DNA from: Phycisphaerae bacterium
GTDB lineage: Bacteria; Planctomycetota; Phycisphaerae; Phycisphaerales; UBA5793
Assembly: GCA_039794345.1 (NCBI GenBank)
Contig: JBDIVQ010000004.1
Span: 126-64,125 of the forward strand
Direction of reading: 5' to 3'
DNA length: 64,000 bases
The translations under genes and the position numbers were made by a program. Below, one piece after another: positions 1-47,134 of this stretch (position 1 is its first letter; each line of letters opens with the position of its first letter). A model generated the notes under the pieces. That model ran no database searches. It worked only from the letters and a program-made list of their open reading frames with translations, and was not told where the DNA came from.

Positions 1-2651
1 ATGCCTTCGGCGATCATGTGCCCCGCGACCTGGTACTCGATCCCCGTCCAGACTTCTTCCCGATAGCGCACGCCCTGCGCGAGGTACTTCGACTTCGGCC
101 AGGTGCAGGTGAACAGGCCCGCATCGCCCGGCCGCGCAAACCACCGCTCGGGCGGATGCTTCTCGTTCTGGGGCCGGACATCCGGCGCCCAGTTGTATTT
201 CCAGGTCGATTCGAGCGCGGTGCGCACGGCCTGCGGCGGATAGAGATACCCGAGGCCGAGCTGGTGCGCCCATCCCTGCCCGAAGAGTTGATCGGAGAGG
301 CACCCCTGCCCGTACTGATCGCGAGGATGCGAGTCGAGATCGACGGCCTGGATGAAATACTCGCCGTTGAAGAGGCGCTGCATCGTGAGGTCGCGGCCGC
401 GCTCGAACGCGGCGCCGCAGCGTCGGGCGAGCGCTTCATCGCCGGCGGCAACCGCCATCTCCTCCCCCGCCCGCAGCGCCGCGAGGTAGAGCGATCCGAC
501 GAACGTATTGGGGCCGAAGAAATCGATGTCGTAGGTGTTGTGCTGGCTGTTTTCGATCAGCCCGTCCTCATCGCCATCCTGCTTGAGCGCAAAGAGCAGG
601 ACCTTGCGGATACTCGGCCAGTTGCGCTTGAGGAACGCGTCGTCGGCCGACATCAGATGTTCGCGGTAACACTTGAGCACCGTGCCGGCCTGGCCGTCGG
701 CGGCGTAGGCGCCGTTGCGCTCGCCGCGGAATCCCACCAGCCCGTCCTCGTGCAGGGCGGCGTCGAGATCCTGCATCTCGCGCACGGAGCGTTCGAGTTC
801 CGGAAAGAGGCGGGCCATGGCGTGGGCGTAGTTCCACACGTGCGTGCAGGTGCCCGAGCAGCAGCCGACGCCCTCCCACGCCCAGAAGCGGCCGCTCTTC
901 CACCACTGGCACGTGCCTGTGGCGAGGTTGGCGACGGTCGAGTGCAGGCGCTCGAGGAGCCAGTGGGGGAGGGTGCTCTCGTCGTAGAACGTCTTCACCC
1001 AGAGGCGCGTCTGCTCCGTCAGCCGCGTGAAGTTGTCGAAGACATAGGTCGCGACGGCCGGCGCATCGGCGAAGCGGTTGGCGTACTGCTGCCCCACGCC
1101 GGGGCGATTGGGGAAGTGCCACGCGAGGACGAAGGAAAAAGTGTGCGAAGCGCCGGGCGCCAGTTCAACCGAGTCGGCCTGCAATCCGAGCGAGTGGCGC
1201 TCGGCGACATCGCAGGTGAAGTTGCAGTTGGAGATCGCCGCGGCCGCGTCCACGAGTTTCCCCGCCGACCGCGCGACATCCGCATCGCCGACGAAAGGCC
1301 CGTCGTACATAAGCGCCATCGTGCCGAAGTCATCGAGTTGCTCCAGCGGGCCTCCGGGGCCGAAGCGCGGCTCGTCGGCAAGTTCGATCTGGTCGATGTT
1401 GATGTGGCCCCACCCGCCCGAGTGCGCATCGACGATCTCAAGGCGCGCCGCGCGCCCGGCAAACTCGCGCACATTCCACGACAGCCAGCGGAGGCGCTCT
1501 TCGTTCCACCCCGTCGCGGCGCGCACGCTCTTGCCGTCGATGAGCAGGTTGATGCAGACTTCCCCCGCGTGGGCCCCGCCGCCGATGAGAAAGTTGATGT
1601 GATTGCGGGTGATCTCGAAAACGGGGCTGGTGAGTCTGCCCTTCGGCCCATCGCCGCCGAGATAGGTGTTGACGAGCCCCTGGCCCTGAAAGCCGCTGAC
1701 GCGCTGCTGGTTGGGCAGTGTGCCCCGCGCGGGCGCTGCGCCGAACGCCTCGCCCTCCGCCGTCCACGGCCCGTAGTCCGCGCCTTCAAAGTCAGCGAGA
1801 ACGATCGGCTCGCGCACCGGCTCATCCGCCCTGGGCAGCGGCGCGACGGAGTGCATGATCGCCCCGCGACCCTTGCGCGACTCCACCCTGCTCACACGCT
1901 GCGCGCGCAGGAATCGGGCGTTGTGGAAGCACACCGCGTTCTCAAGCCACGTCAGCACGCCGACAGAGATGACCCTCTCCGACGTGTTGCGCACCGTCAG
2001 GTTGAAGATCGTCGCGGGCAGCGCGCTGTCGGGCGCGTTGAGCGGGATGAACGGCGAGAACGCCTCAAGCCGCGCCGCCACGGGGCAATCAGGATCAGCG
2101 TAATCAACAGTGCCGATCGGATAGCGGCCGGCGAAGGCGACATCGGCAAACCCCGCCCGCGACATGCGGGCAATGGCGTTGACGCCGCGATCATCGATGA
2201 CCAGCGCGAATCCCTGCTCGACGGGCGCCGCGGGCGGCGGCTGGTCGTAGTTGTCGCGCCCGTAGCCGCTGAAGTAAGGCTGGTTGAAGATCTGCCAGCA
2301 GCCGAGCGTGCCGTCGCCGAGGAGGTAAAGTTGCCCGGCCGCGACGCCGCCGACGGGCATGCCGATGAAGTTGAGTTCCTCGCCGCGGCAGAGTCGCGCC
2401 TCGCCGCGCTGCATGAGCGCCGCGAGCCACTGCGGCGCGAGTTTCTTGTCGGCGGGCACGAAGTGAGCGATGCCGCCATCAGGCTGCGCGAACGGCCCGG
2501 CCATCACCGCGCGACTGAGGCCCGGTAGTGAGAGTGCCGTCAATCCGGCCCCGGCAGTGTGCAGAAAGTCGCGTCGAGTGACTTCGCTGGAGCATCCGTT
2601 TCCGCAACCGCACGGACTCGGGCGCTGCTGACTCGGCCCAGTCGAGTTCAT
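1..2651 (-). CDS. Glycoside hydrolase family 116 (GBA2-type beta-glucosidase/glucosylceramidase), Tat-exported; 3' end lies beyond the window
   Basis: Absent from the ORF track because it is open to the window edge. Hand translation of the minus strand from ATG 2651 stays open to base 1. It begins MNSTGPSQQRPSPCGCGNGCSSEVTRRDFLHTAGAGL (twin-arginine signal). It contains WEGVGCCSGTCTHVWNYAHAMARLFPELE and SDQLFGQGWAHQLGL, which I recognise as GH116 catalytic-domain hallmarks. The plus-strand ORF 18..2528 is its antisense shadow. Confidence 0.85.
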   Translation of the reverse strand, partial: MNSTGPSQQRPSPCGCGNGCSSEVTRRDFLHTAGAGLTALSLPGLSRAVMAGPFAQPDGGIAHFVPADKKLAPQWLAALMQRGEARLCRGEELNFIGMPVGGVAAGQLYLLGDGTLGCWQIFNQPYFSGYGRDNYDQPPPAAPVEQGFALVIDDRGVNAIARMSRAGFADVAFAGRYPIGTVDYADPDCPVAARLEAFSPFIPLNAPDSALPATIFNLTVRNTSERVISVGVLTWLENAVCFHNARFLRAQRVSRVESRKGRGAIMHSVAPLPRADEPVREPIVLADFEGADYGPWTAEGEAFGAAPARGTLPNQQRVSGFQGQGLVNTYLGGDGPKGRLTSPVFEITRNHINFLIGGGAHAGEVCINLLIDGKSVRAATGWNEERLRWLSWNVREFAGRAARLEIVDAHSGGWGHINIDQIELADEPRFGPGGPLEQLDDFGTMALMYDGPFVGDADVARSAGKLVDAAAAISNCNFTCDVAERHSLGLQADSVELAPGASHTFSFVLAWHFPNRPGVGQQYANRFADAPAVATYVFDNFTRLTEQTRLWVKTFYDESTLPHWLLERLHSTVANLATGTCQWWKSGRFWAWEGVGCCSGTCTHVWNYAHAMARLFPELERSVREMQDLDAALHEDGLVGFRGERNGAYAADGQAGTVLKCYREHLMSADDAFLKRNWPSIRKVLLFALKQDGDEDGLIENSQHNTYDIDFFGPNTFVGSLYLAALRAGEEMAVAAGDEALARRCGAAFERGRDLTMQRLFNGEYFIQAVDLDSHPRDQYGQGCLSDQLFGQGWAHQLGLGYLYPPQAVRTALESTWKYNWAPDVRPQNEKHPPERWFARPGDAGLFTCTWPKSKYLAQGVRYREEVWTGIEYQVAGHMIAEG

Positions 2652-43065: not shown

Positions 43066-45147
43066 TCAAACCGGTCTGAGGCCTGCGAGAATCGTCGCGC
43101 GGCCGTGGCTGGCCACCTCCTCGCGCAGCAGGTCGATGAACCGCTCCAGCGGCACGCTTCCGATGTCGCCCGCAGTGCGGTGGCGGATGCTCACCGTACC
43201 CGCCTCGGCGTCCTTGCCGCCGACGATGAGCATGTAGGGGGTCTTCTCCTCCGTCGCGGTGCGGATCTTCGCCTGAAGGCGCTCGGGTGACTCATCAAGG
43301 CTGACGCGAAAAGCCCCGGCCCCGGCGATCGCCCCATGCACCTTCCGGGCGTAGTCGGCGAACTTCTCTGAGATGCTCAGGATGCGCACCTGCTCGGGAC
43401 TGAGCCAGAGCGGGAAGTCGCCGGCGAAGTGCTCGATGAGAATCCCGATGAAGCGCTCCAGCGAGCCGAAGGGCGCGCAGTGGATCATGATCGGGCGGTG
43501 CTTCTCATTGTCGGCGCCGATGTAGTTGAGGCCGAAGCGCTCCGGCAGGTTGTAGTCCACCTGTACGGTGCCCAGTTGCCATTCGCGTCCGATGCAGTCC
43601 TTGGCGACGAAGTCGATCTTCGGGCCGTAGAACGCCGCCTCGCCCGGCTCGATCGAGTAGGGTACGCCCATTCCTTTGGCCGCCTCGATGCAGACTTTCT
43701 CCGCCAGCGCCCAGTTCTCCGCCGAGCCGACGTACTTGCTGCTGCCCGGATCGCGCAGGCCGACCCGCACGCGGTAGTCGTTGAGGCCGATCTCCGCCAG
43801 GACCATCCGCGCCAGTTCGATGTCGATGTCGATCTCGCGGCTGAGTTGATCCGGTGTGCAGAAGATGTGCGAGTCATCCTGGGTGAAGCCGCGCACCCGG
43901 GTCATGCCGTGGCACTCGCCGGACTGCTCATAGCGGTAGACGGTGCCGAACTCGGCGAGGCGGATGGGCAGGTTGCGGTAACTGTGCTGGTCCGCCTCGT
44001 AGATCTTGATGTGATGCGGGCAGTTCATCGGCTTGAGCAGAAAGCCGTCCACCTCCGGCGCGGCCATGGCATTGGCGATGTCGGCGCAGCCGCAGCCTCC
44101 GCCCTGCGCCAGCAGCGAACGGCTCAACCCCTCCGCCTCGACGAGAGGCGGGAACTGCGAGTCGGCGTAGTAGGGGAAGTGCCCGCTCGTGCGATAGAGG
44201 TTCAACTTGCCGATGTGTGGCGTATTCACCCACACAAAGCCTCGATCGCTCCGCGCCTTGCGAAGGAACTCTTCGAGTTCGCGGCGGATGATCGCCCCGT
44301 TGGGCAGCCAGAGCACCAGCCCGGTTCCGACATCCTCGTTGAGGCTGATGAGGCGCAGTTGTTTTCCGATCACGCGGTGATCGCGCTTGCGGGCCTCATC
44401 GAGCATTTTGAGATGATGGTCGAGGTCTTTCTGGTTGGCGAAGGCGGTGCCGTAGACGCGAGTCAGCCGGTCGCTGTTCTCGTCGCCGTGCCAGTAGGAG
44501 GAGGCGAGGGACATGACCTTGAACGCGCCGATGCGCCCCGTGCTGGGCACGTGCGGTCCGCGGCAGAGGTCTTCCCAGTCTTCGCCGGGTTTGCCCGTGG
44601 CATAAAACGAGAGACGGTCCGACCCCGCCTCGATCGCTTTGCGCGCGTTGTCGATCTTGTACTTCGAGCCTTCGTGCTCCAGTTTCTTCATCCCTTCACT
44701 CATCGGCATCTCGTAGCGGCAGAAGGGGCGATTGGCCCGGATGATCTCCGCCATGATCCGCTCGACCTCGGCGAACTCATCGCTGCTGAGCGACTTCCCC
44801 TCGGGAAAGCGCATGTCGTAGTAGAAGCCGCTGTCCACCGGCGGGCCGTAGACGAGTTGAGTGCCCGGCTTGAGCCTCTGGATCGCTTCGGCCATGACGT
44901 GCGCCGCCGAGTGACGCAGCAAGTAGAGCGCATCGGGATCGGGCTGCCCGTCGCGGGTCTTCTCCGTGACGATCGAGACTTTCGCATCGCGGTCGATGAG
45001 GTGGCCGAGGTCGTGGAGTTGCCCATCGACCTTGACCCCCAGCGCCGCCTTGGCCAGCCCCGGTCCGATCGACGCGGCGATCTGCGCGCCGCTTACCGGC
45101 TCGGGGTACTCGCGAACGCTTCCATCAGGCAGTGTAATGCGAGGCAT
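43066..45147 (-). CDS. thrS: Threonine--tRNA ligase
   Basis: MPRITLPDGSVREY start at ATG 45147 with AAGGA 8 nt upstream. TGS, editing and class II catalytic blocks: HSAAHVMA, FRVMSLASSYWHGD, CGPHH-like MNCPHHIKIY and HCAPFGSLERF. Confidence 0.95.
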   Translation of the reverse strand: MPRITLPDGSVREYPEPVSGAQIAASIGPGLAKAALGVKVDGQLHDLGHLIDRDAKVSIVTEKTRDGQPDPDALYLLRHSAAHVMAEAIQRLKPGTQLVYGPPVDSGFYYDMRFPEGKSLSSDEFAEVERIMAEIIRANRPFCRYEMPMSEGMKKLEHEGSKYKIDNARKAIEAGSDRLSFYATGKPGEDWEDLCRGPHVPSTGRIGAFKVMSLASSYWHGDENSDRLTRVYGTAFANQKDLDHHLKMLDEARKRDHRVIGKQLRLISLNEDVGTGLVLWLPNGAIIRRELEEFLRKARSDRGFVWVNTPHIGKLNLYRTSGHFPYYADSQFPPLVEAEGLSRSLLAQGGGCGCADIANAMAAPEVDGFLLKPMNCPHHIKIYEADQHSYRNLPIRLAEFGTVYRYEQSGECHGMTRVRGFTQDDSHIFCTPDQLSREIDIDIELARMVLAEIGLNDYRVRVGLRDPGSSKYVGSAENWALAEKVCIEAAKGMGVPYSIEPGEAAFYGPKIDFVAKDCIGREWQLGTVQVDYNLPERFGLNYIGADNEKHRPIMIHCAPFGSLERFIGILIEHFAGDFPLWLSPEQVRILSISEKFADYARKVHGAIAGAGAFRVSLDESPERLQAKIRTATEEKTPYMLIVGGKDAEAGTVSIRHRTAGDIGSVPLERFIDLLREEVASHGRATILAGLRPV

Positions 45148-45188
45148 GACTGGTTCCTTCAACGTCGTTCACCCATCGACCCTCAAAG

Positions 45189-45210
45189 CCCCGGCCCTCC
45201 CGGGCCGGGG
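45189..45210 (-). other. Perfect 9-bp GC hairpin in the thrS 5' leader
   Basis: On the minus-sense RNA: CCCCGGCCC-GGGA-GGGCCGGGG followed by CUUUGAGGG. It lies between the attenuator terminator and the thrS ribosome-binding site. Confidence 0.4.
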
Positions 45211-45232
45211 AGGAGTTTCACCACGAACCCCC

Positions 45233-45270
45233 AAAACAAACAACGCACGGCTCCCTCATCGGCCGTGCGT
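45233..45270 (-). terminator. Intrinsic terminator of the thrS leader (attenuator)
   Basis: Minus-sense ACGCACGGC-N10-GCCGUGCGU (45270..45243) followed directly by UGUUUGUUUU (45242..45233), 85 nt upstream of the thrS ATG. Confidence 0.6.
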
Positions 45271-45301
45271 CATCCAATCCATCGCTGAGCGCACCAACCG
45301 A

Positions 45302-45361
45302 TCACGGCCGCGTGGTTGCGGTCGTCGTGGGGGTCGTGGCAGTGGTGCGGTTCAGTTTCAT
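45302..45361 (-). CDS. Thr-rich leader peptide (19 codons) of a putative thrS attenuator
   Basis: ATG AAA CTG AAC CGC ACC ACT GCC ACG ACC CCC ACG ACG ACC GCA ACC ACG CGG CCG TGA encodes MKLNRTTATTPTTTATTRP, with 9 Thr in 19 codons. Too short for the ORF track; found by hand translation. Confidence 0.6.
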   Translation of the reverse strand: MKLNRTTATTPTTTATTRP

Positions 45362-45384
45362 GTGAGATAAAGCCTAGTCAGCGT

Positions 45385-46080
45385 TCACGCCGGGTCAATC
45401 GGCCGCACGCCGCGGCCGCTTGAGGGCCGGGCCGTCGCGGTCGGTTCGGCGGCCGGCTCGCTCCGCCGGTTCATCCGCAGCATCAGCAGGCCGATGCCGC
45501 TGAGCAGCAGCACATCGGCGATATTGAAGACCCAGGGAAAGACCTCCGAGTTGCCTCCCGGCCAGGTCCAGTTCAGCGGCAGGTGCGTCTCCGGGAGGAT
45601 CTTCAGAAAGTCCCTCACCGCGCCGTACATGATCCGGTCGAAGAGATTGCCGATCGCTCCGGCCAGGATGCACCCGATCGCGAAGTGCGCCAGCGCATCG
45701 CCGGATCGCGTGCGGCAGGCGAAGACGTAAAACCCGACGACGACGGCAATGAGCGTGAACGCGACGAAGAAGATCCGCTGCCCCGGCCCGATGCCGAAGA
45801 CCGCCCCGCGATTGAGCACGAGGTGCAGATCGAGAATGTTCGGGATCGCCTCGAAGTGCGCGTCCGGCGGCGGATGCCAGTTCGGATCGGAGAGAATGAC
45901 CTCCCGATCGAGCACGATCGCCTCATCGCCGATAAAGGCGAACGCAGCGCTCTTGGAGGCGAGGTCCATCACCAGACCCAGAAGCATCACCGCCAGAAGC
46001 AGCAGCCACGACGCGACGGATCGTCCCGCCGGCGGACGGACATCAGAACCGGGAAACTTCAGCGAGCGCTCTTGCATCAT
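45385..46080 (-). CDS. lspA: Lipoprotein signal peptidase (signal peptidase II)
   Basis: Start at ATG 46080 (MMQERS). 231 aa with LNRGAVFGIG, GNLFDRIMYGAVRDFL and VFNIADVLL. Confidence 0.85.
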   Translation of the reverse strand: MMQERSLKFPGSDVRPPAGRSVASWLLLLAVMLLGLVMDLASKSAAFAFIGDEAIVLDREVILSDPNWHPPPDAHFEAIPNILDLHLVLNRGAVFGIGPGQRIFFVAFTLIAVVVGFYVFACRTRSGDALAHFAIGCILAGAIGNLFDRIMYGAVRDFLKILPETHLPLNWTWPGGNSEVFPWVFNIADVLLLSGIGLLMLRMNRRSEPAAEPTATARPSSGRGVRPIDPA

Positions 46081-46169: not shown

Positions 46170-47048
46170 TCAGTGCCGGAATCGATGGAAGCGGTCGCGC
46201 TCCCGCGCCACCTCGATGCACACCTTGGCCCAGGGCTTGGCCTCGAGGCGCGGCAGGCTGATGGGCTTGCCCGTCACCTCGCAGATCCCGTAGGTGCCAT
46301 CCCTGATCTTCTCGAGCGAACGGTCGATCTCCAGGATCAACTCGCGCTCGGTGGCGGCCAACTGGAGAGCGAACTCCTGGTCAAAAGTGTCCGTCCCCGC
46401 ATCGGCCATGTGCATCGGGGCGTGGTTGGCGTCTCCCGATCCGCTTCCCCGCAGCGCGCCGGACTCCATCGCCTGAACGTCGCCGAGGATCTCGGCTCGT
46501 CGCTTGAGCAGAAGATCGCGGAAGTGATCCAGCTGCTTCTTCGTCAGGCGGGCAGGCGTGCTCCGGGCGTAGGCCGCGTCGTTGGGGTGCACCGGCGTCG
46601 GATCGAGCATCCCCGCCTTGCGCACCGGCAGCGATGGCGCCTTGCGGCGCGGCGGGGTGACAGGCGAAGAGTTGTGCGACGGGGAGGGACGCACTGCAGC
46701 GCCGGCGGCTGACGGGCCGACACGCCTGGAGGCCGGCCGCGCTGCACGCCCGGACCTCCGGGCCGAGGGCCGCGATCCCGACGCACGCCTCGGCGTACGC
46801 TTCTTCTTGCCCGCCTTCGGGGTGGAACTCCGTCGGACCGGCGCCTTGCGGCTGCTCTTCCTGGACGCGGGCCTGGATGCGGTCTTGCGCCTGGACCGGG
46901 CGGGTCGGCGCTTCGCCGCGCGCTTCCCGGGGGGCTTCTTCGCCTTCGGACGCTTCGGCCTGGTCCGTGCGGCGGCTTTCCTGGCAGGCTTCTTCTTCCG
47001 GCTGGGCCTGGCCTTGGCGGAAGTCCGGCTGGTCTTCTTTTTTGCCAC
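46170..47048 (-). CDS. dksA: DksA/TraR-family RNA-polymerase-binding protein with a long basic N-terminal extension
   Basis: GTG 47048 with GGGAG 7 nt upstream. About 170 aa of K/R/P/A-rich sequence precedes the DksA core: LTKKQLDHFRDLLLKRRAEIL, HMADAGTDTFDQEFAL and DGTYGICEVTGKPISLPRLEAKPWAKVCIEV. Confidence 0.8.
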   Translation of the reverse strand: MAKKKTSRTSAKARPSRKKKPARKAAARTRPKRPKAKKPPGKRAAKRRPARSRRKTASRPASRKSSRKAPVRRSSTPKAGKKKRTPRRASGSRPSARRSGRAARPASRRVGPSAAGAAVRPSPSHNSSPVTPPRRKAPSLPVRKAGMLDPTPVHPNDAAYARSTPARLTKKQLDHFRDLLLKRRAEILGDVQAMESGALRGSGSGDANHAPMHMADAGTDTFDQEFALQLAATERELILEIDRSLEKIRDGTYGICEVTGKPISLPRLEAKPWAKVCIEVARERDRFHRFRH

Positions 47049-47134
47049 GGCCAGGCTCCCTGGATCAATGTGGATAAGCCGAAAAGCGGTGGAAAATTTC
47101 GTGGAATGCCGCCGCGTCAGGTGCGGAGCCAAAA

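What the first reader, a model, noticed from the sequence alone, without database searches (positions are those of the whole stretch)
45148..45398. Threonine-codon leader peptide with terminator and antiterminator upstream of thrS
Seen:
- Between lspA and thrS the minus strand encodes MKLNRTTATTPTTTATTRP (45361..45302), with 9 Thr in 19 codons.
- 31 nt further downstream lies ACGCACGGC-N10-GCCGUGCGU (45270..45243), followed directly by UGUUUGUUUU. This intrinsic terminator is 85 nt before the thrS ATG at 45147.
- The last leader codons plus the stop (CGGCCGUG, 45310..45303) are perfectly complementary to CACGGCCG (45267..45260), which covers the 5' arm of the terminator.
- A ribosome stalled on the Thr run would leave CGGCCGUG free to form an antiterminator. 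A ribosome reaching the stop would mask it.
- Leader codons CGCACCA (45349..45343) can also pair with UGGUGCG (45296..45290).
- A second perfect hairpin (45210..45189) lies before the ribosome-binding site.
- A weak TTGACC-N16-TAGGCT box (45398..45371) would start the transcript almost at the leader ATG.

Known:
- This is the logic of thr/trp/his/pheST attenuation.
- thrS itself is classically controlled by operator mimicry (E. coli) or a T-box (Firmicutes).

Inference: this is a ribosome-mediated attenuator sensing Thr-tRNA charging on a synthetase gene. I do not know it to be described for this kind of organism.
Basis: partly seen in the sequence, partly recalled or inferred. Interest (0 to 1): 0.8.

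Follow-up and report, generated by a model that had tools for sequence, protein, structure and literature searches.

The report
Threonine leader-peptide attenuator before thrS
A 19-codon mini-gene packed with threonine codons, followed by a transcription stop signal, sits in front of the threonyl-tRNA synthetase gene of this Phycisphaerales (Planctomycetota) bacterium and of about a third of its relatives. It is most likely a classical ribosome-sensing switch that makes more synthetase when charged threonine tRNA runs low: a known mechanism that I could not find reported for this gene in this phylum.

Summary
On the minus strand there is a leader ORF, MKLNRTTATTPTTTATTRP (45361..45302). A G+C-rich hairpin with a U-tract follows (45270..45233), then thrS (ATG at 45147). 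Complementary segments can form an antiterminator.

The window comes from a Phycisphaerales bacterium. Of 151 related thrS loci with enough upstream DNA, 47 carry the same module:
- a 10-26 codon ORF in which 43% of codons are Thr;
- an intrinsic terminator 23-56 nt after its stop codon;
- thrS 26-142 nt further on.

In about 580 kb searched on both strands, a mini-ORF rich in one amino acid and followed by a well-formed terminator occurred only before thrS, and there the amino acid was threonine. Third codon positions vary 3-4 times more than first and second positions, which is a coding signature. A TANNNT -10 box lies 5-12 nt before the leader start in 43 of 46 unique leaders, against 1.9% at random positions. 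The leader ORF is therefore probably translated from a leaderless mRNA.

Antiterminator complementarity exceeds shuffled controls family-wide (z = -4.3) but only marginally in the window itself (p = 0.08).

Verdict: a real, conserved leader-peptide transcription attenuator and a new member of a known kind. Its function is untested experimentally.

The parts
45393..45398 (-). -35-like hexamer TTGACC, lying inside the 3' end of lspA
   Evidence: Position confirmed. It is identical in the clade members WIN, L001 and L002, while nearby bases vary (alignment A1). It sits 16 nt from the -10 box.
45371..45376 (-). -10 box TAGGCT (TANNNT), 9 nt before the leader ATG. It implies a leaderless or nearly leaderless leader mRNA.
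   Evidence: A TANNNT hexamer ends 5-12 nt before the leader start in 43 of 46 unique leaders. At random positions a slightly narrower window (5-11 nt) is hit 1.9% of the time. The transcription start site has not been mapped.
45302..45361 (-). Leader ORF thrL-like, MKLNRTTATTPTTTATTRP plus stop codon
   Evidence: Sequence. Homologous or analogous Thr-rich ORFs are found at 47 related thrS loci. Codon-position entropy shows a coding signature.
45311..45346 (-). Regulatory Thr-codon tract (codons 6-17, 9 of them Thr), the predicted site of ribosome stalling
   Evidence: Modelled stalls at codons 8-11 and 13 lower the terminator probability to 0.05-0.40; codon 12 gives 0.79. Across 46 unique leaders, 341 of 799 codons are Thr.
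45343..45349 (-). Region 1 (CGCACCA), which can pair with region 2 when the leader is not being translated
   Evidence: With no ribosome, the minimum-free-energy fold pairs the leader codons with 45296..45290 and keeps the terminator formed (P = 0.97).
45290..45310 (-). Region 2, the 5' strand of the antiterminator. It contains two overlapping options: CGGCCGUG (45310..45303) and AUCGGUUGGUGCG (45302..45290).
   Evidence: Energies are -21.2 and -19.5 kcal/mol. The segment is 100% conserved in WIN, L001 and L002, while the adjacent spacer and loop vary (A1). In 26 of 46 leaders the partner of the terminator 5' arm lies between -10 and +20 of the leader stop.
45258..45270 (-). Region 3, the 5' arm of the terminator. 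It is shared between the terminator and the antiterminator.
45243..45251 (-). Region 4, the 3' arm of the terminator (GCCGUGCGU)
   Evidence: The hairpin is -16.8 kcal/mol for the core and -20.5 kcal/mol extended. Both arms are invariant within the clade while the loop varies.
45233..45242 (-). U-tract UGUUUGUUUU
   Evidence: All 47 related positive loci have at least 5 T in the 9 nt after the stem; this was also a search criterion.
45189..45210 (-). Second hairpin CCCCGGCCC-GGGA-GGGCCGGGG, between the attenuator and the thrS ribosome-binding site. Its role is unknown.
   Evidence: A stable hairpin sits at this place in four of the five clade members (WIN, L081, L002, L082) and is weaker in L001. 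One compensatory A-U to G-C change separates L002 from L082. No such hairpin was noticed in the other clades when reading their sequences; this was not tested.
45154..45159 (-). Putative thrS Shine-Dalgarno-like AAGGAA, 6 nt before the ATG
   Evidence: Read from the sequence and conserved in A1. Its role is inferred.
43066..45147 (-). thrS, encoding threonyl-tRNA synthetase (693 aa). This is the regulated gene.
   Evidence: Translation. Pfam finds TGS, tRNA_SAD, tRNA-synt_2b and HGTP_anticodon.
45385..46080 (-). lspA (signal peptidase II), the upstream neighbour. Its exact start is uncertain, and its 3' end overlaps the -35 box.
   Evidence: Pfam Peptidase_A8, E = 1.9e-28. It is the upstream neighbour only in the window's own clade.

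Best explanation
**What it is.** A ribosome-mediated (leader-peptide) transcription attenuator that controls thrS.

**How it most likely works.** All steps below are inferred from sequence, folding models and comparison with relatives. None has been tested experimentally.
1. Transcription starts from a promoter whose -10 box (TAGGCT) lies 9 nt before the leader AUG. The 19-codon leader ORF is therefore translated from the very 5' end of the RNA, without a Shine-Dalgarno sequence.
2. When Thr-tRNA(Thr) is plentiful, the ribosome runs through the nine Thr codons to the UGA stop and covers the roughly 10-13 nt after it (region 2).
3. The terminator hairpin (45270..45243) plus U-tract then forms, and RNA polymerase stops about 85 nt before thrS.
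4. When charged tRNA(Thr) is scarce, because threonine or ThrRS activity is low, the ribosome stalls in the middle of the Thr tract.
5. Region 2 (45310..45290) stays free and pairs with the 5' arm of the terminator as it emerges. This prevents the terminator from forming, and polymerase reads into thrS.

The result is a homeostatic feedback loop on ThrRS supply. The logic matches E. coli pheST attenuation and, functionally, the thrS T-box of Firmicutes.
For: **Anatomy.** All features are present at exact coordinates.

**Conservation.** The same module precedes thrS in 47 of 151 related Phycisphaerales/Planctomycetota loci. Pooled statistics cover 46 unique leaders, the window included.
- Median leader length is 18 aa, and 43% of leader codons are Thr.
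- Distance from the leader stop to the terminator stem has a median of 31.5 nt (range 23-56).

**Specificity.** In 519 kb of related loci plus the 64-kb window, both strands, a Thr-rich mini-ORF followed by a terminator occurs only upstream of thrS on its coding strand. Only 3 weak non-Thr cases appear elsewhere, apart from one Pro-rich alternative-frame ORF overlapping the L009 leader.

**Linkage to thrS.** Upstream neighbour genes differ between loci; lspA is upstream in only 4 of 47.

**Coding signature.** In the Thr tract, entropy by codon position is 0.26, 0.36 and 1.12 bits. All four ACN codons are used.

**Promoter.** A TANNNT box lies 5-12 nt before the start codon in 43 of 46 leaders; random positions give 1.9% for a 5-11 nt window.

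**Alternative folding in the window.**
- Terminator -20.5 kcal/mol against antiterminator -19.5 or -21.2 kcal/mol.
- P(terminator) is 0.97 with no ribosome or with a ribosome at the stop.
- It falls to 0.05-0.40 with a ribosome stalled at codons 8-11 or 13.

**Antiterminator complementarity.** The summed value over 14 representative loci is z = -4.3 against dinucleotide shuffles, with 0 of 300 shuffles as good.

**Phylogenetic footprint.** Within the window's clade, region 2 and both terminator arms are invariant. The terminator loop, the spacer and the downstream sequence diverge.

**Independent recognition of the layout.** Rfam Thr_leader aligns over its full length at a sub-threshold score (30.9 bits, E = 0.0011).
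Against: **No experimental evidence of any kind.** There is no transcript 3' end, mapped start site, ribosome profiling or reporter data.

**Weak points in the window itself.**
- Its antiterminator complementarity is only marginally better than shuffles (p = 0.08).
- Its clade shows no covariation, because the arms are invariant.

**Weak points across the family.**
- In 6 of 14 representative loci the antiterminator is no better than chance.
- In about 8 of 22 loci the terminator wins at equilibrium wherever the ribosome is placed. In those loci the switch would have to be purely kinetic, or would have to work differently.

**Limits of the model.**
- Modelled stalls at the first two Thr codons (6, 7; P about 0.9) and the last three (14, 16, 17; P = 0.97) do not relieve termination.
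- The ribosome-masking footprint (A-site plus 12 nt) is an assumption.

**Patchy distribution.** About two thirds of related thrS genes lack the element. It is therefore dispensable.
Confidence: 0.78

Rival explanations
1. The hairpin plus U-tract is simply the terminator of the upstream gene lspA. The Thr-rich mini-ORF is then a chance open frame in G+C-rich DNA, and thrS has its own promoter further downstream.
For: - The terminator lies 115 nt after the lspA stop on the same strand.
- ACC and ACG triplets are common in 68% G+C DNA.
- The consensus promoter scan found nothing here.
Against: - The ORF-plus-terminator pair recurs at 43 loci where lspA is not the upstream gene.
- It is always in frame, has a start codon, and has a -10 box 5-12 nt upstream.
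- The Thr tract shows wobble-position variation.
- No comparable combination occurs anywhere else in about 580 kb, both strands.
Confidence: 0.04
2. The leader ORF senses Thr-tRNA, but the output is not intrinsic termination controlled by an antiterminator. Three alternatives are possible.
- Translation of the leader could block Rho loading.
- Ribosome position could control mRNA stability or processing.
- Ribosome position could control thrS translation through the downstream structures, including the second hairpin.
For: - In 6 of 14 representative loci the antiterminator complementarity is no better than shuffles.
- In about 8 of 22 loci the terminator is predicted to form wherever the ribosome sits.
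- A conserved second hairpin of unknown role lies between the attenuator and the ribosome-binding site in the window's clade.
- Mycobacterial leaderless Cys-rich leader ORFs are reported as attenuators (bioRxiv 10.1101/834739), and actinobacterial cys-operon leader peptides are reported to lack obvious terminators (PMC1262725). I read only titles and abstracts for these two points.
Against: - Every one of the 47 positive loci has a canonical G+C-rich hairpin with a U-tract at a narrow distance after the leader stop (23-56 nt). That placement is what a terminator/antiterminator switch requires.
- Family-wide antiterminator complementarity is significant (z = -4.3).
- The window's own model switches as expected.
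Confidence: 0.12
3. The mini-ORF encodes a functional small Thr-rich peptide with its own promoter and terminator. On this view it is an independent gene that merely neighbours thrS.
For: - It has its own promoter-like -10 box and its own terminator.
- In one clade a conserved TAGGAT hexamer directly after the terminator could be a separate thrS promoter.
Against: - The peptide sequence is not conserved apart from the Thr content. N- and C-terminal residues, length (10-26 aa) and the interruptions in the Thr run all vary freely.
- That pattern fits codon sensing, not a functional peptide.
- The exclusive association with the cognate synthetase gene is otherwise unexplained.
Confidence: 0.03
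4. Control is by RNA-protein or RNA-tRNA recognition rather than by a ribosome. The candidates are ThrRS binding a tRNA(Thr)-like operator, as in E. coli thrS, or uncharged tRNA(Thr) binding a T-box-like leader, as in Firmicutes.
For: These are the two classically described modes of thrS control.
Against: - No T-box or any other Rfam cis-regulatory family matches this region, even at E up to 10.
- None matches in 20 related loci at gathering threshold, or in 9 others at E up to 1.
- The hairpin loops (CGAUGAGGGA and GGGA) contain no Thr anticodon triplet (NGU) in an anticodon-loop-like 7-nt setting (read).
- The conserved feature across loci is a translated Thr-codon run, not an RNA fold.
Confidence: 0.03

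Closest known systems
E. coli pheST attenuator (pheM leader peptide)
   Same: A leader ORF rich in the cognate amino-acid codons, followed by an intrinsic terminator with an alternative antiterminator, controls an aminoacyl-tRNA synthetase gene. It senses charged tRNA and so gives feedback on synthetase activity. This rests on established knowledge and is cited as the precedent in PMC1262725.
   Different: - The amino acid and gene differ: Phe and pheST against Thr and thrS.
- The phylum differs: Gammaproteobacteria against Planctomycetota.
- There is no sequence homology.
- The leader here appears to be translated from a leaderless mRNA.
E. coli thr operon leader (thrL; Rfam RF00506 Thr_leader)
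   Same: Both have a run of Thr codons in a short leader ORF, a 1:2 hairpin, and then a terminator. The Rfam model aligns over its full length to 45354..45236.
   Different: - The score of 30.9 bits is well below the gathering score of 55.
- Nine other positive loci give no hit at E up to 1, so the resemblance is convergent.
- RF00506 regulates the thrABC biosynthesis operon and also uses Ile codons. Here the target is the synthetase gene, and there are no Ile codons in the window's leader.
Leaderless leader-peptide attenuators of Actinobacteria: Streptomyces leuS and trpS (PMC1262725); S. lividans leuL, trpL, alaL and thrL (PMC8079986); mycobacterial poly-Cys short ORFs (bioRxiv 10.1101/834739)
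   Same: Short regulatory ORFs begin at or near the transcript's 5' end, in high-G+C bacteria, upstream of aaRS or amino-acid genes. S. lividans even has a proposed thrL before thrS (PMC8079986).
   Different: - The S. lividans thrL has only 2 Thr in 18 residues and no clear terminator (PMC8079986). Here there are 4-10 Thr per leader and a canonical terminator in every case.
- The phylum is different and there is no sequence similarity.
T-box riboswitch on thrS (Firmicutes)
   Same: It has the same physiological logic (read-through of a terminator before thrS when tRNA(Thr) charging is low) and the same target gene.
   Different: The sensor is direct binding of uncharged tRNA to a structured leader, with no translated ORF. 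No T-box match was found here.
E. coli thrS translational operator (tRNA(Thr) anticodon-arm mimic bound by ThrRS)
   Same: It regulates the same gene, and the outcome is also autoregulation of ThrRS level.
   Different: It acts on translation initiation by binding the protein next to the ribosome-binding site. No anticodon-like loop was found here, and the element here is a terminator-based switch lying more than 85 nt before the start codon.

Membership tests
Classical ribosome-mediated (leader-peptide) transcription attenuators | A short ORF with a cluster of codons for the amino acid cognate to the regulated gene | tested here: met
   9 Thr in 19 codons before thrS. Across 46 unique leaders at related thrS loci, 43% of codons are Thr. 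The ORF shows a coding-type substitution pattern.
Classical ribosome-mediated (leader-peptide) transcription attenuators | A Rho-independent terminator between the leader ORF and the structural gene | tested here: met
   The hairpin is -16.8 to -20.5 kcal/mol and is followed by UGUUUGUUUU, ending 85 nt before the thrS ATG. A terminator is present in all 47 related positive loci, 23-56 nt after the leader stop.
Classical ribosome-mediated (leader-peptide) transcription attenuators | A mutually exclusive antiterminator whose 5' strand is covered by a ribosome at the stop codon and left free by a ribosome stalled on the regulatory codons | tested here: inconclusive
   - Window: the pairing exists and the masking model switches, but it is only marginally better than shuffles (p = 0.08).
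- Family: z = -4.3 over 14 representatives, yet 6 of the 14 are individually no better than chance.
- The partner lies around the stop codon in 26 of 46 leaders.
Classical ribosome-mediated (leader-peptide) transcription attenuators | Read-through responds to the charging level of the cognate tRNA; the leader ORF is translated | not testable with these tools
   This needs Term-seq or Northern analysis, reporter fusions or ribosome profiling in a Phycisphaerales isolate or a heterologous host.
Rfam RF00506 Thr_leader (thr operon leader) | A covariance-model score at or above the gathering threshold (55 bits) | tested here: not met
   The score is 30.9 bits, E = 0.0011. Nine other positive loci give no hit at E up to 1.
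Rfam RF00506 Thr_leader (thr operon leader) | Located upstream of the threonine biosynthesis operon thrABC | tested here: not met
   The downstream gene is thrS, as shown by Pfam ThrRS domains.
T-box leader | A match to the conserved T-box fold and sequence (Rfam T-box model) | tested here: not met
   There is no T-box hit at E up to 10 in 44900..45700. There is none in the related loci either.
E. coli-type thrS operator (tRNA mimicry) | A stem-loop with a tRNA(Thr) anticodon-like loop adjacent to the thrS ribosome-binding site | tested here: not met
   The only hairpin near the ribosome-binding site (45210..45189) has a GGGA tetraloop and ends about 40 nt before the ATG. The terminator loop CGAUGAGGGA has no NGU anticodon triplet. 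This was checked by inspection only.
Leaderless leader-peptide attenuators (as described in Actinobacteria) | Transcription starts at or within a few nt of the leader start codon, with no Shine-Dalgarno sequence | tested here: inconclusive
   A -10-like TANNNT hexamer ends 5-12 nt before the start codon in 43 of 46 leaders; random positions give 1.9% for a 5-11 nt window. In the window the gap is 9 nt, which implies a 5' UTR of about 0-4 nt. No start-site data are available.

The most novel reading that the evidence does not exclude
This would be a previously undescribed, ancient and widespread family of leaderless Thr-leader attenuators on thrS in Phycisphaerae. It would be the first case of classical ribosome-mediated attenuation reported in Planctomycetota. 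The mechanism needs the lead ribosome to follow RNA polymerase closely. Its conservation would therefore be genomic evidence for tight transcription-translation coupling, and for leaderless initiation, in a phylum whose cell organisation has been debated on exactly this point. That debate is recalled from my own knowledge, not from a paper read here.
Probability: 0.6. Interest if true: 0.55.

Novelty: new member of a known kind. Interest (0 to 1): 0.45.

Why it matters
**Regulation of thrS.** The textbook modes of thrS control are operator mimicry in E. coli and a T-box in Firmicutes. This finding adds a third, leader-peptide mode with strong comparative support.

**Reach of classical attenuation.** It extends the mechanism to Planctomycetota, where I found no report of it.

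**Testable consequences.**
- The lead ribosome would have to follow RNA polymerase closely in these bacteria.
- Leaderless initiation would be used for regulatory ORFs outside Actinobacteria.

**Practical use.** The 47 related examples plus the window provide a training set for annotating such leaders in Phycisphaerales MAGs. They also offer a compact, threonine-responsive genetic part.

**Limit.** The mechanism itself is classical, so the advance is incremental rather than conceptual.

Tried and rejected
1. **Whole-region fold.** Folding 45400..45140 gave one long-range structure (z = -2.37) that does not bear on the switch. I replaced it with ribosome-masked and truncated folds.
2. **Generic promoter/terminator scanner.** It reported nothing here. 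I judged this a limit of its consensus rules, not evidence of absence.
3. **Rfam membership.** The Thr_leader hit is sub-threshold and is not reproduced in other positive loci, so I rejected membership. No T-box or other cis-regulatory family appears in loci that lack the leader.
4. **First shuffle control.** I redid it shuffling everything between the stall site and the terminator.
5. **Covariation in the window's own attenuator.** I spent the metagenome scan on finding intermediate relatives. Only two more near-identical members turned up (L081, L082), both with invariant arms. The next relatives, at about 70% identity or less, mostly lack the element. The window's own helices therefore could not be tested by covariation.
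6. **First detection threshold.** Requiring at least 5 Thr in 8-10 codons missed weaker leaders (L041, L046, L047). I redid the search anchored on the terminator.
7. **Literature.** Lopatovskaya et al. 2010 (PubMed 20198868) is the most likely place for an earlier prediction, but it is not held in the library. A prior in-silico mention of thrS attenuation cannot be fully excluded.
8. **Region 1:2 pairing.** By eye, pairing of the Thr codons with region 2 is clear in the window and in L003 and L005, but not in the L010-type leaders. I did not treat it as a family feature.
Full report
**1.

Reading the minus strand and locating each motif by script reproduces every coordinate in the finding.
- Leader ORF 45361..45302, MKLNRTTATTPTTTATTRP*.
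- Terminator arms 45270..45262 and 45251..45243, followed by UGUUUGUUUU at 45242..45233.
- thrS ATG at 45147.
- The two complementary pairs: 45310..45303 with 45267..45260, and 45349..45343 with 45296..45290.
- The second hairpin 45210..45189.
- TTGACC, a 16-nt spacer, then TAGGCT (45398..45371).

The window is 68% G+C. Pfam confirms signal peptidase II upstream and a four-domain ThrRS downstream.

The generic consensus scanner listed neither the promoter nor the terminator. This reflects its rules: TAGGCT matches only 3 of 6 positions of TATAAT, and the hairpin has a loop of 10 nt, or 7 nt with a bulge.

Within the 64-kb window this is the only mini-ORF with at least 6 Thr in 10 residues. It is also the only one of 21 single-amino-acid-rich mini-ORFs followed by a terminator.

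**2. Organism and relatives.**

A scan of one genome per species with the ThrRS protein returned 80 loci. By their record titles, nearly all are from Planctomycetota MAGs, mostly Phycisphaerales. The window therefore comes from a member of that order, and L001 and L002 are 93% identical in ThrRS.

A terminator-anchored search of the 400 nt before thrS found the module in 24 of the 77 loci with enough upstream DNA. The module is a Thr-rich ORF with at least 4 Thr, followed by a G+C-rich hairpin and a U-tract. Nine loci have a terminator only and 44 have neither.

A metagenome scan with the N-terminal 300 residues added 23 positives among 74 usable loci. Two of these belong to the window's clade: L081 (MPRIRTATTTRTTTATTRP) and L082.

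Other example leaders are MSQKTTTTTTTTSPD, MTTTTTGTTTTPL, MARAQTTTTTTTTETRPCG, MNRTGTTTTTTTTTNRFSG and MSTTTTTTTQTTTPPR.

Pooled over 46 unique leaders, the window included:
- 41 start with ATG.
- Median length is 18 aa.
- 341 of 799 codons (43%) are Thr.
- The terminator stem starts 23-56 nt after the leader stop (median 31.5).

On a ThrRS tree the positives are scattered through the Phycisphaerales part and absent from the Pirellulales-like part. This suggests an old element with many losses, although repeated gain is not excluded.

**3. It is specific to thrS and it is translated.**

In 519 kb of fetched loci, both strands, every Thr-rich mini-ORF followed by a terminator lies directly before thrS on its coding strand. 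Three weak non-Thr cases with poor hairpins occur elsewhere, and one Pro-rich alternative-frame ORF overlaps the L009 leader.

A tblastn search with LspA shows that lspA is the upstream neighbour only in the window's clade, in 4 of 47 positives. The element therefore belongs to thrS and not to the upstream gene.

In ten same-length leaders of one clade, entropy in the Thr tract is 0.26, 0.36 and 1.12 bits at codon positions 1, 2 and 3. All four ACN codons are used (C 175, G 127, T 27, A 12). This is the pattern expected if Thr codons, rather than an RNA motif or a particular peptide, are under selection. Outside the Thr run the peptides are not conserved.

**4. Promoter and leaderless start.**

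A TANNNT hexamer ends 5-12 nt before the leader start codon in 43 of 46 unique leaders, most often 6-8 nt. At random positions in the same loci, a 5-11 nt window is hit 1.9% of the time.

In the window the gap is 9 nt, and TTGACC lies 16 nt further upstream. Both boxes are invariant in the clade alignment while their surroundings vary (A1). There is no room for a Shine-Dalgarno sequence.

I infer that the leader ORF is translated from a leaderless or nearly leaderless mRNA, as reported for leader peptides in Streptomyces (PMC8079986) and mycobacteria (bioRxiv 10.1101/834739; PMC4633059). The start site itself is unmapped.

**5. The switch.**

In the window the terminator is -16.8 kcal/mol for the core and -20.5 kcal/mol extended. 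Two antiterminators are about isoenergetic with it:
- AUCGGUUGGUGCG (45302..45290) pairing with CGCACGGCCGAU (45269..45258), at -19.5 kcal/mol.

I modelled the ribosome by masking the RNA up to 12 nt past the first base of the A-site codon. The equilibrium probability of the terminator stem then varies with ribosome position:

| Ribosome position | P(terminator) |
|---|---|
| No ribosome (region 1 pairs with region 2) | 0.97 |
| At the stop codon | 0.97 |
| Stalled at codons 8, 9, 10, 11 | 0.40, 0.38, 0.15, 0.05 |
| Stalled at codon 12 | 0.79 |
| Stalled at codon 13 | 0.30 |
| Stalled at Thr codons 14, 16 and 17 | 0.97 |

So the middle of the Thr tract is the effective sensor in this model.

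Across loci, when the 3' arm is left out, the terminator's 5' arm pairs with the segment around the leader stop (-10..+20) in 26 of 46 cases. In several others it pairs with a segment inside the ORF's 3' part.

Against dinucleotide shuffles of everything between the stall site and the terminator, the stabilisation from this pairing has the following significance:
- Summed over 14 representatives: z = -4.3, with 0 of 300 shuffles as good.
- Individually significant at p of 0.04 or below in six loci (L003, L009, L010, L021, L028, L056).
- Window: p = 0.08. L031: p = 0.11.
- No better than chance in six loci.

Equilibrium modelling likewise shows a clear switch in only about half of the loci. In the rest the switch would have to be kinetic, with the antiterminator forming first during transcription, or else weaker. 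This is the main soft spot of the mechanism.

In the window's clade, region 2 and both terminator arms are 100% conserved. The loop, the spacer and the sequence after the U-tract diverge. That is a clear footprint, but it offers no covariation.

In another clade one terminator pair changes from G-C to A-U in a compensatory way. The antiterminator partner is a U that pairs with both G and A. This is consistent with both helices but weak.

**6. Comparison with known systems.**

Rfam's Thr_leader aligns end to end with 45354..45236 but scores 30.9 bits against a gathering score of 55. Nine other positive loci give no hit at E up to 1. The element therefore works like the thr operon leader without being a member of that family, and its target is the synthetase rather than thrABC.

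No T-box or other curated cis-regulatory RNA matches here or in the loci searched. No anticodon-like loop suggests E. coli-type operator mimicry.

Leader-peptide attenuation of aaRS genes is established for E. coli pheST and predicted for Streptomyces trpS and leuS (PMC1262725). An RNA-seq reannotation of S. lividans proposed a leaderless thrL before thrS, but with only two Thr and no clear terminator (PMC8079986).

Full-text searches found nothing on a Thr leader before thrS or on leader-peptide attenuation in Planctomycetes. One relevant survey, Lopatovskaya et al. 2010, could not be read.

**7. Verdict.**

This is a genuine, conserved leader-peptide attenuator on thrS: a new member of a well-known kind, in a phylum and on a gene where I found no description of it.

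I put about 0.78 on the classical terminator/antiterminator mechanism. The residue goes mainly to a Thr-sensing leader with a different output (Rho, RNA stability or translation).

Interest is moderate at 0.45. The comparative case is unusually clean. It also implies close ribosome-polymerase coupling and leaderless initiation in Phycisphaerae. The logic itself is textbook, and nothing has been tested experimentally.

Noticed in passing
window 45189..45210 (-); L001, L002, L081, L082, between the terminator and thrS: A second, very stable hairpin lies between the attenuator terminator and the thrS ribosome-binding site. It is strong in four of the five members of the window's clade and weaker in L001. 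In L002 and L082 it is a stem of about 20 bp with one compensatory A-U to G-C change between them, followed by UUUUGGG or CUUUGGG. Its role is unknown; a second terminator, an RNA-stabilising element or a palindromic repeat are possibilities.
   Followed up: partly
L003, L005, L007, L010, L015, L016, L105, L123, L125-L127, L139, L141, L147, L155; also L008, L012, L042: In one Phycisphaerales clade the sequence right after the terminator is almost invariant (TTTTTCATAGGAT). A second motif, AGCGAGCA, lies about 10 nt before the thrS ATG. L008, L012 and L042 lack the Thr leader but keep TTTTTCATAGGAT (TTTCATAGGAT in L042) and close variants of AGCGAGCA. The TAGGAT could be the -10 box of a second, constitutive thrS promoter, or a binding site.
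   Followed up: partly
L008, about 2420..2500 (upstream of thrS): This locus keeps the terminator hairpin, but the Thr leader is replaced. After a TAGATT -10-like box and a 7-nt gap comes a 15-codon ORF, MIFHVLYPASAGRFS. It reads through the hairpin and stops in the conserved CATAGGAT. It may be a decayed or re-purposed leader.
   Followed up: no
L014, L025, L032 (the 330 nt upstream of thrS): Several thrS loci that lack the attenuator carry short tandem repeats in the upstream region. L014 has GAGAGT/GGAGAGT units, L025 has GGGGCGA units, and L032 has GGACTCG/GGACTCA units. Their significance is unknown.
   Followed up: no
window 46170..47132 (-): The ORF upstream of lspA (320 aa as listed) matches Pfam only in its last 35 residues, a DksA/TraR C4 zinc finger. 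The long N-terminal part has no match, so the true start may be much further downstream.
   Followed up: no
L130, L133 (upstream of thrS): These are borderline cases scored as 'terminator only'. A mini-ORF, MFPRLPDSQPPTRTAATNPQPLRG, with just 3 Thr precedes a terminator. They may be degenerate attenuators, so the count of 47 positives is a lower bound.
   Followed up: no
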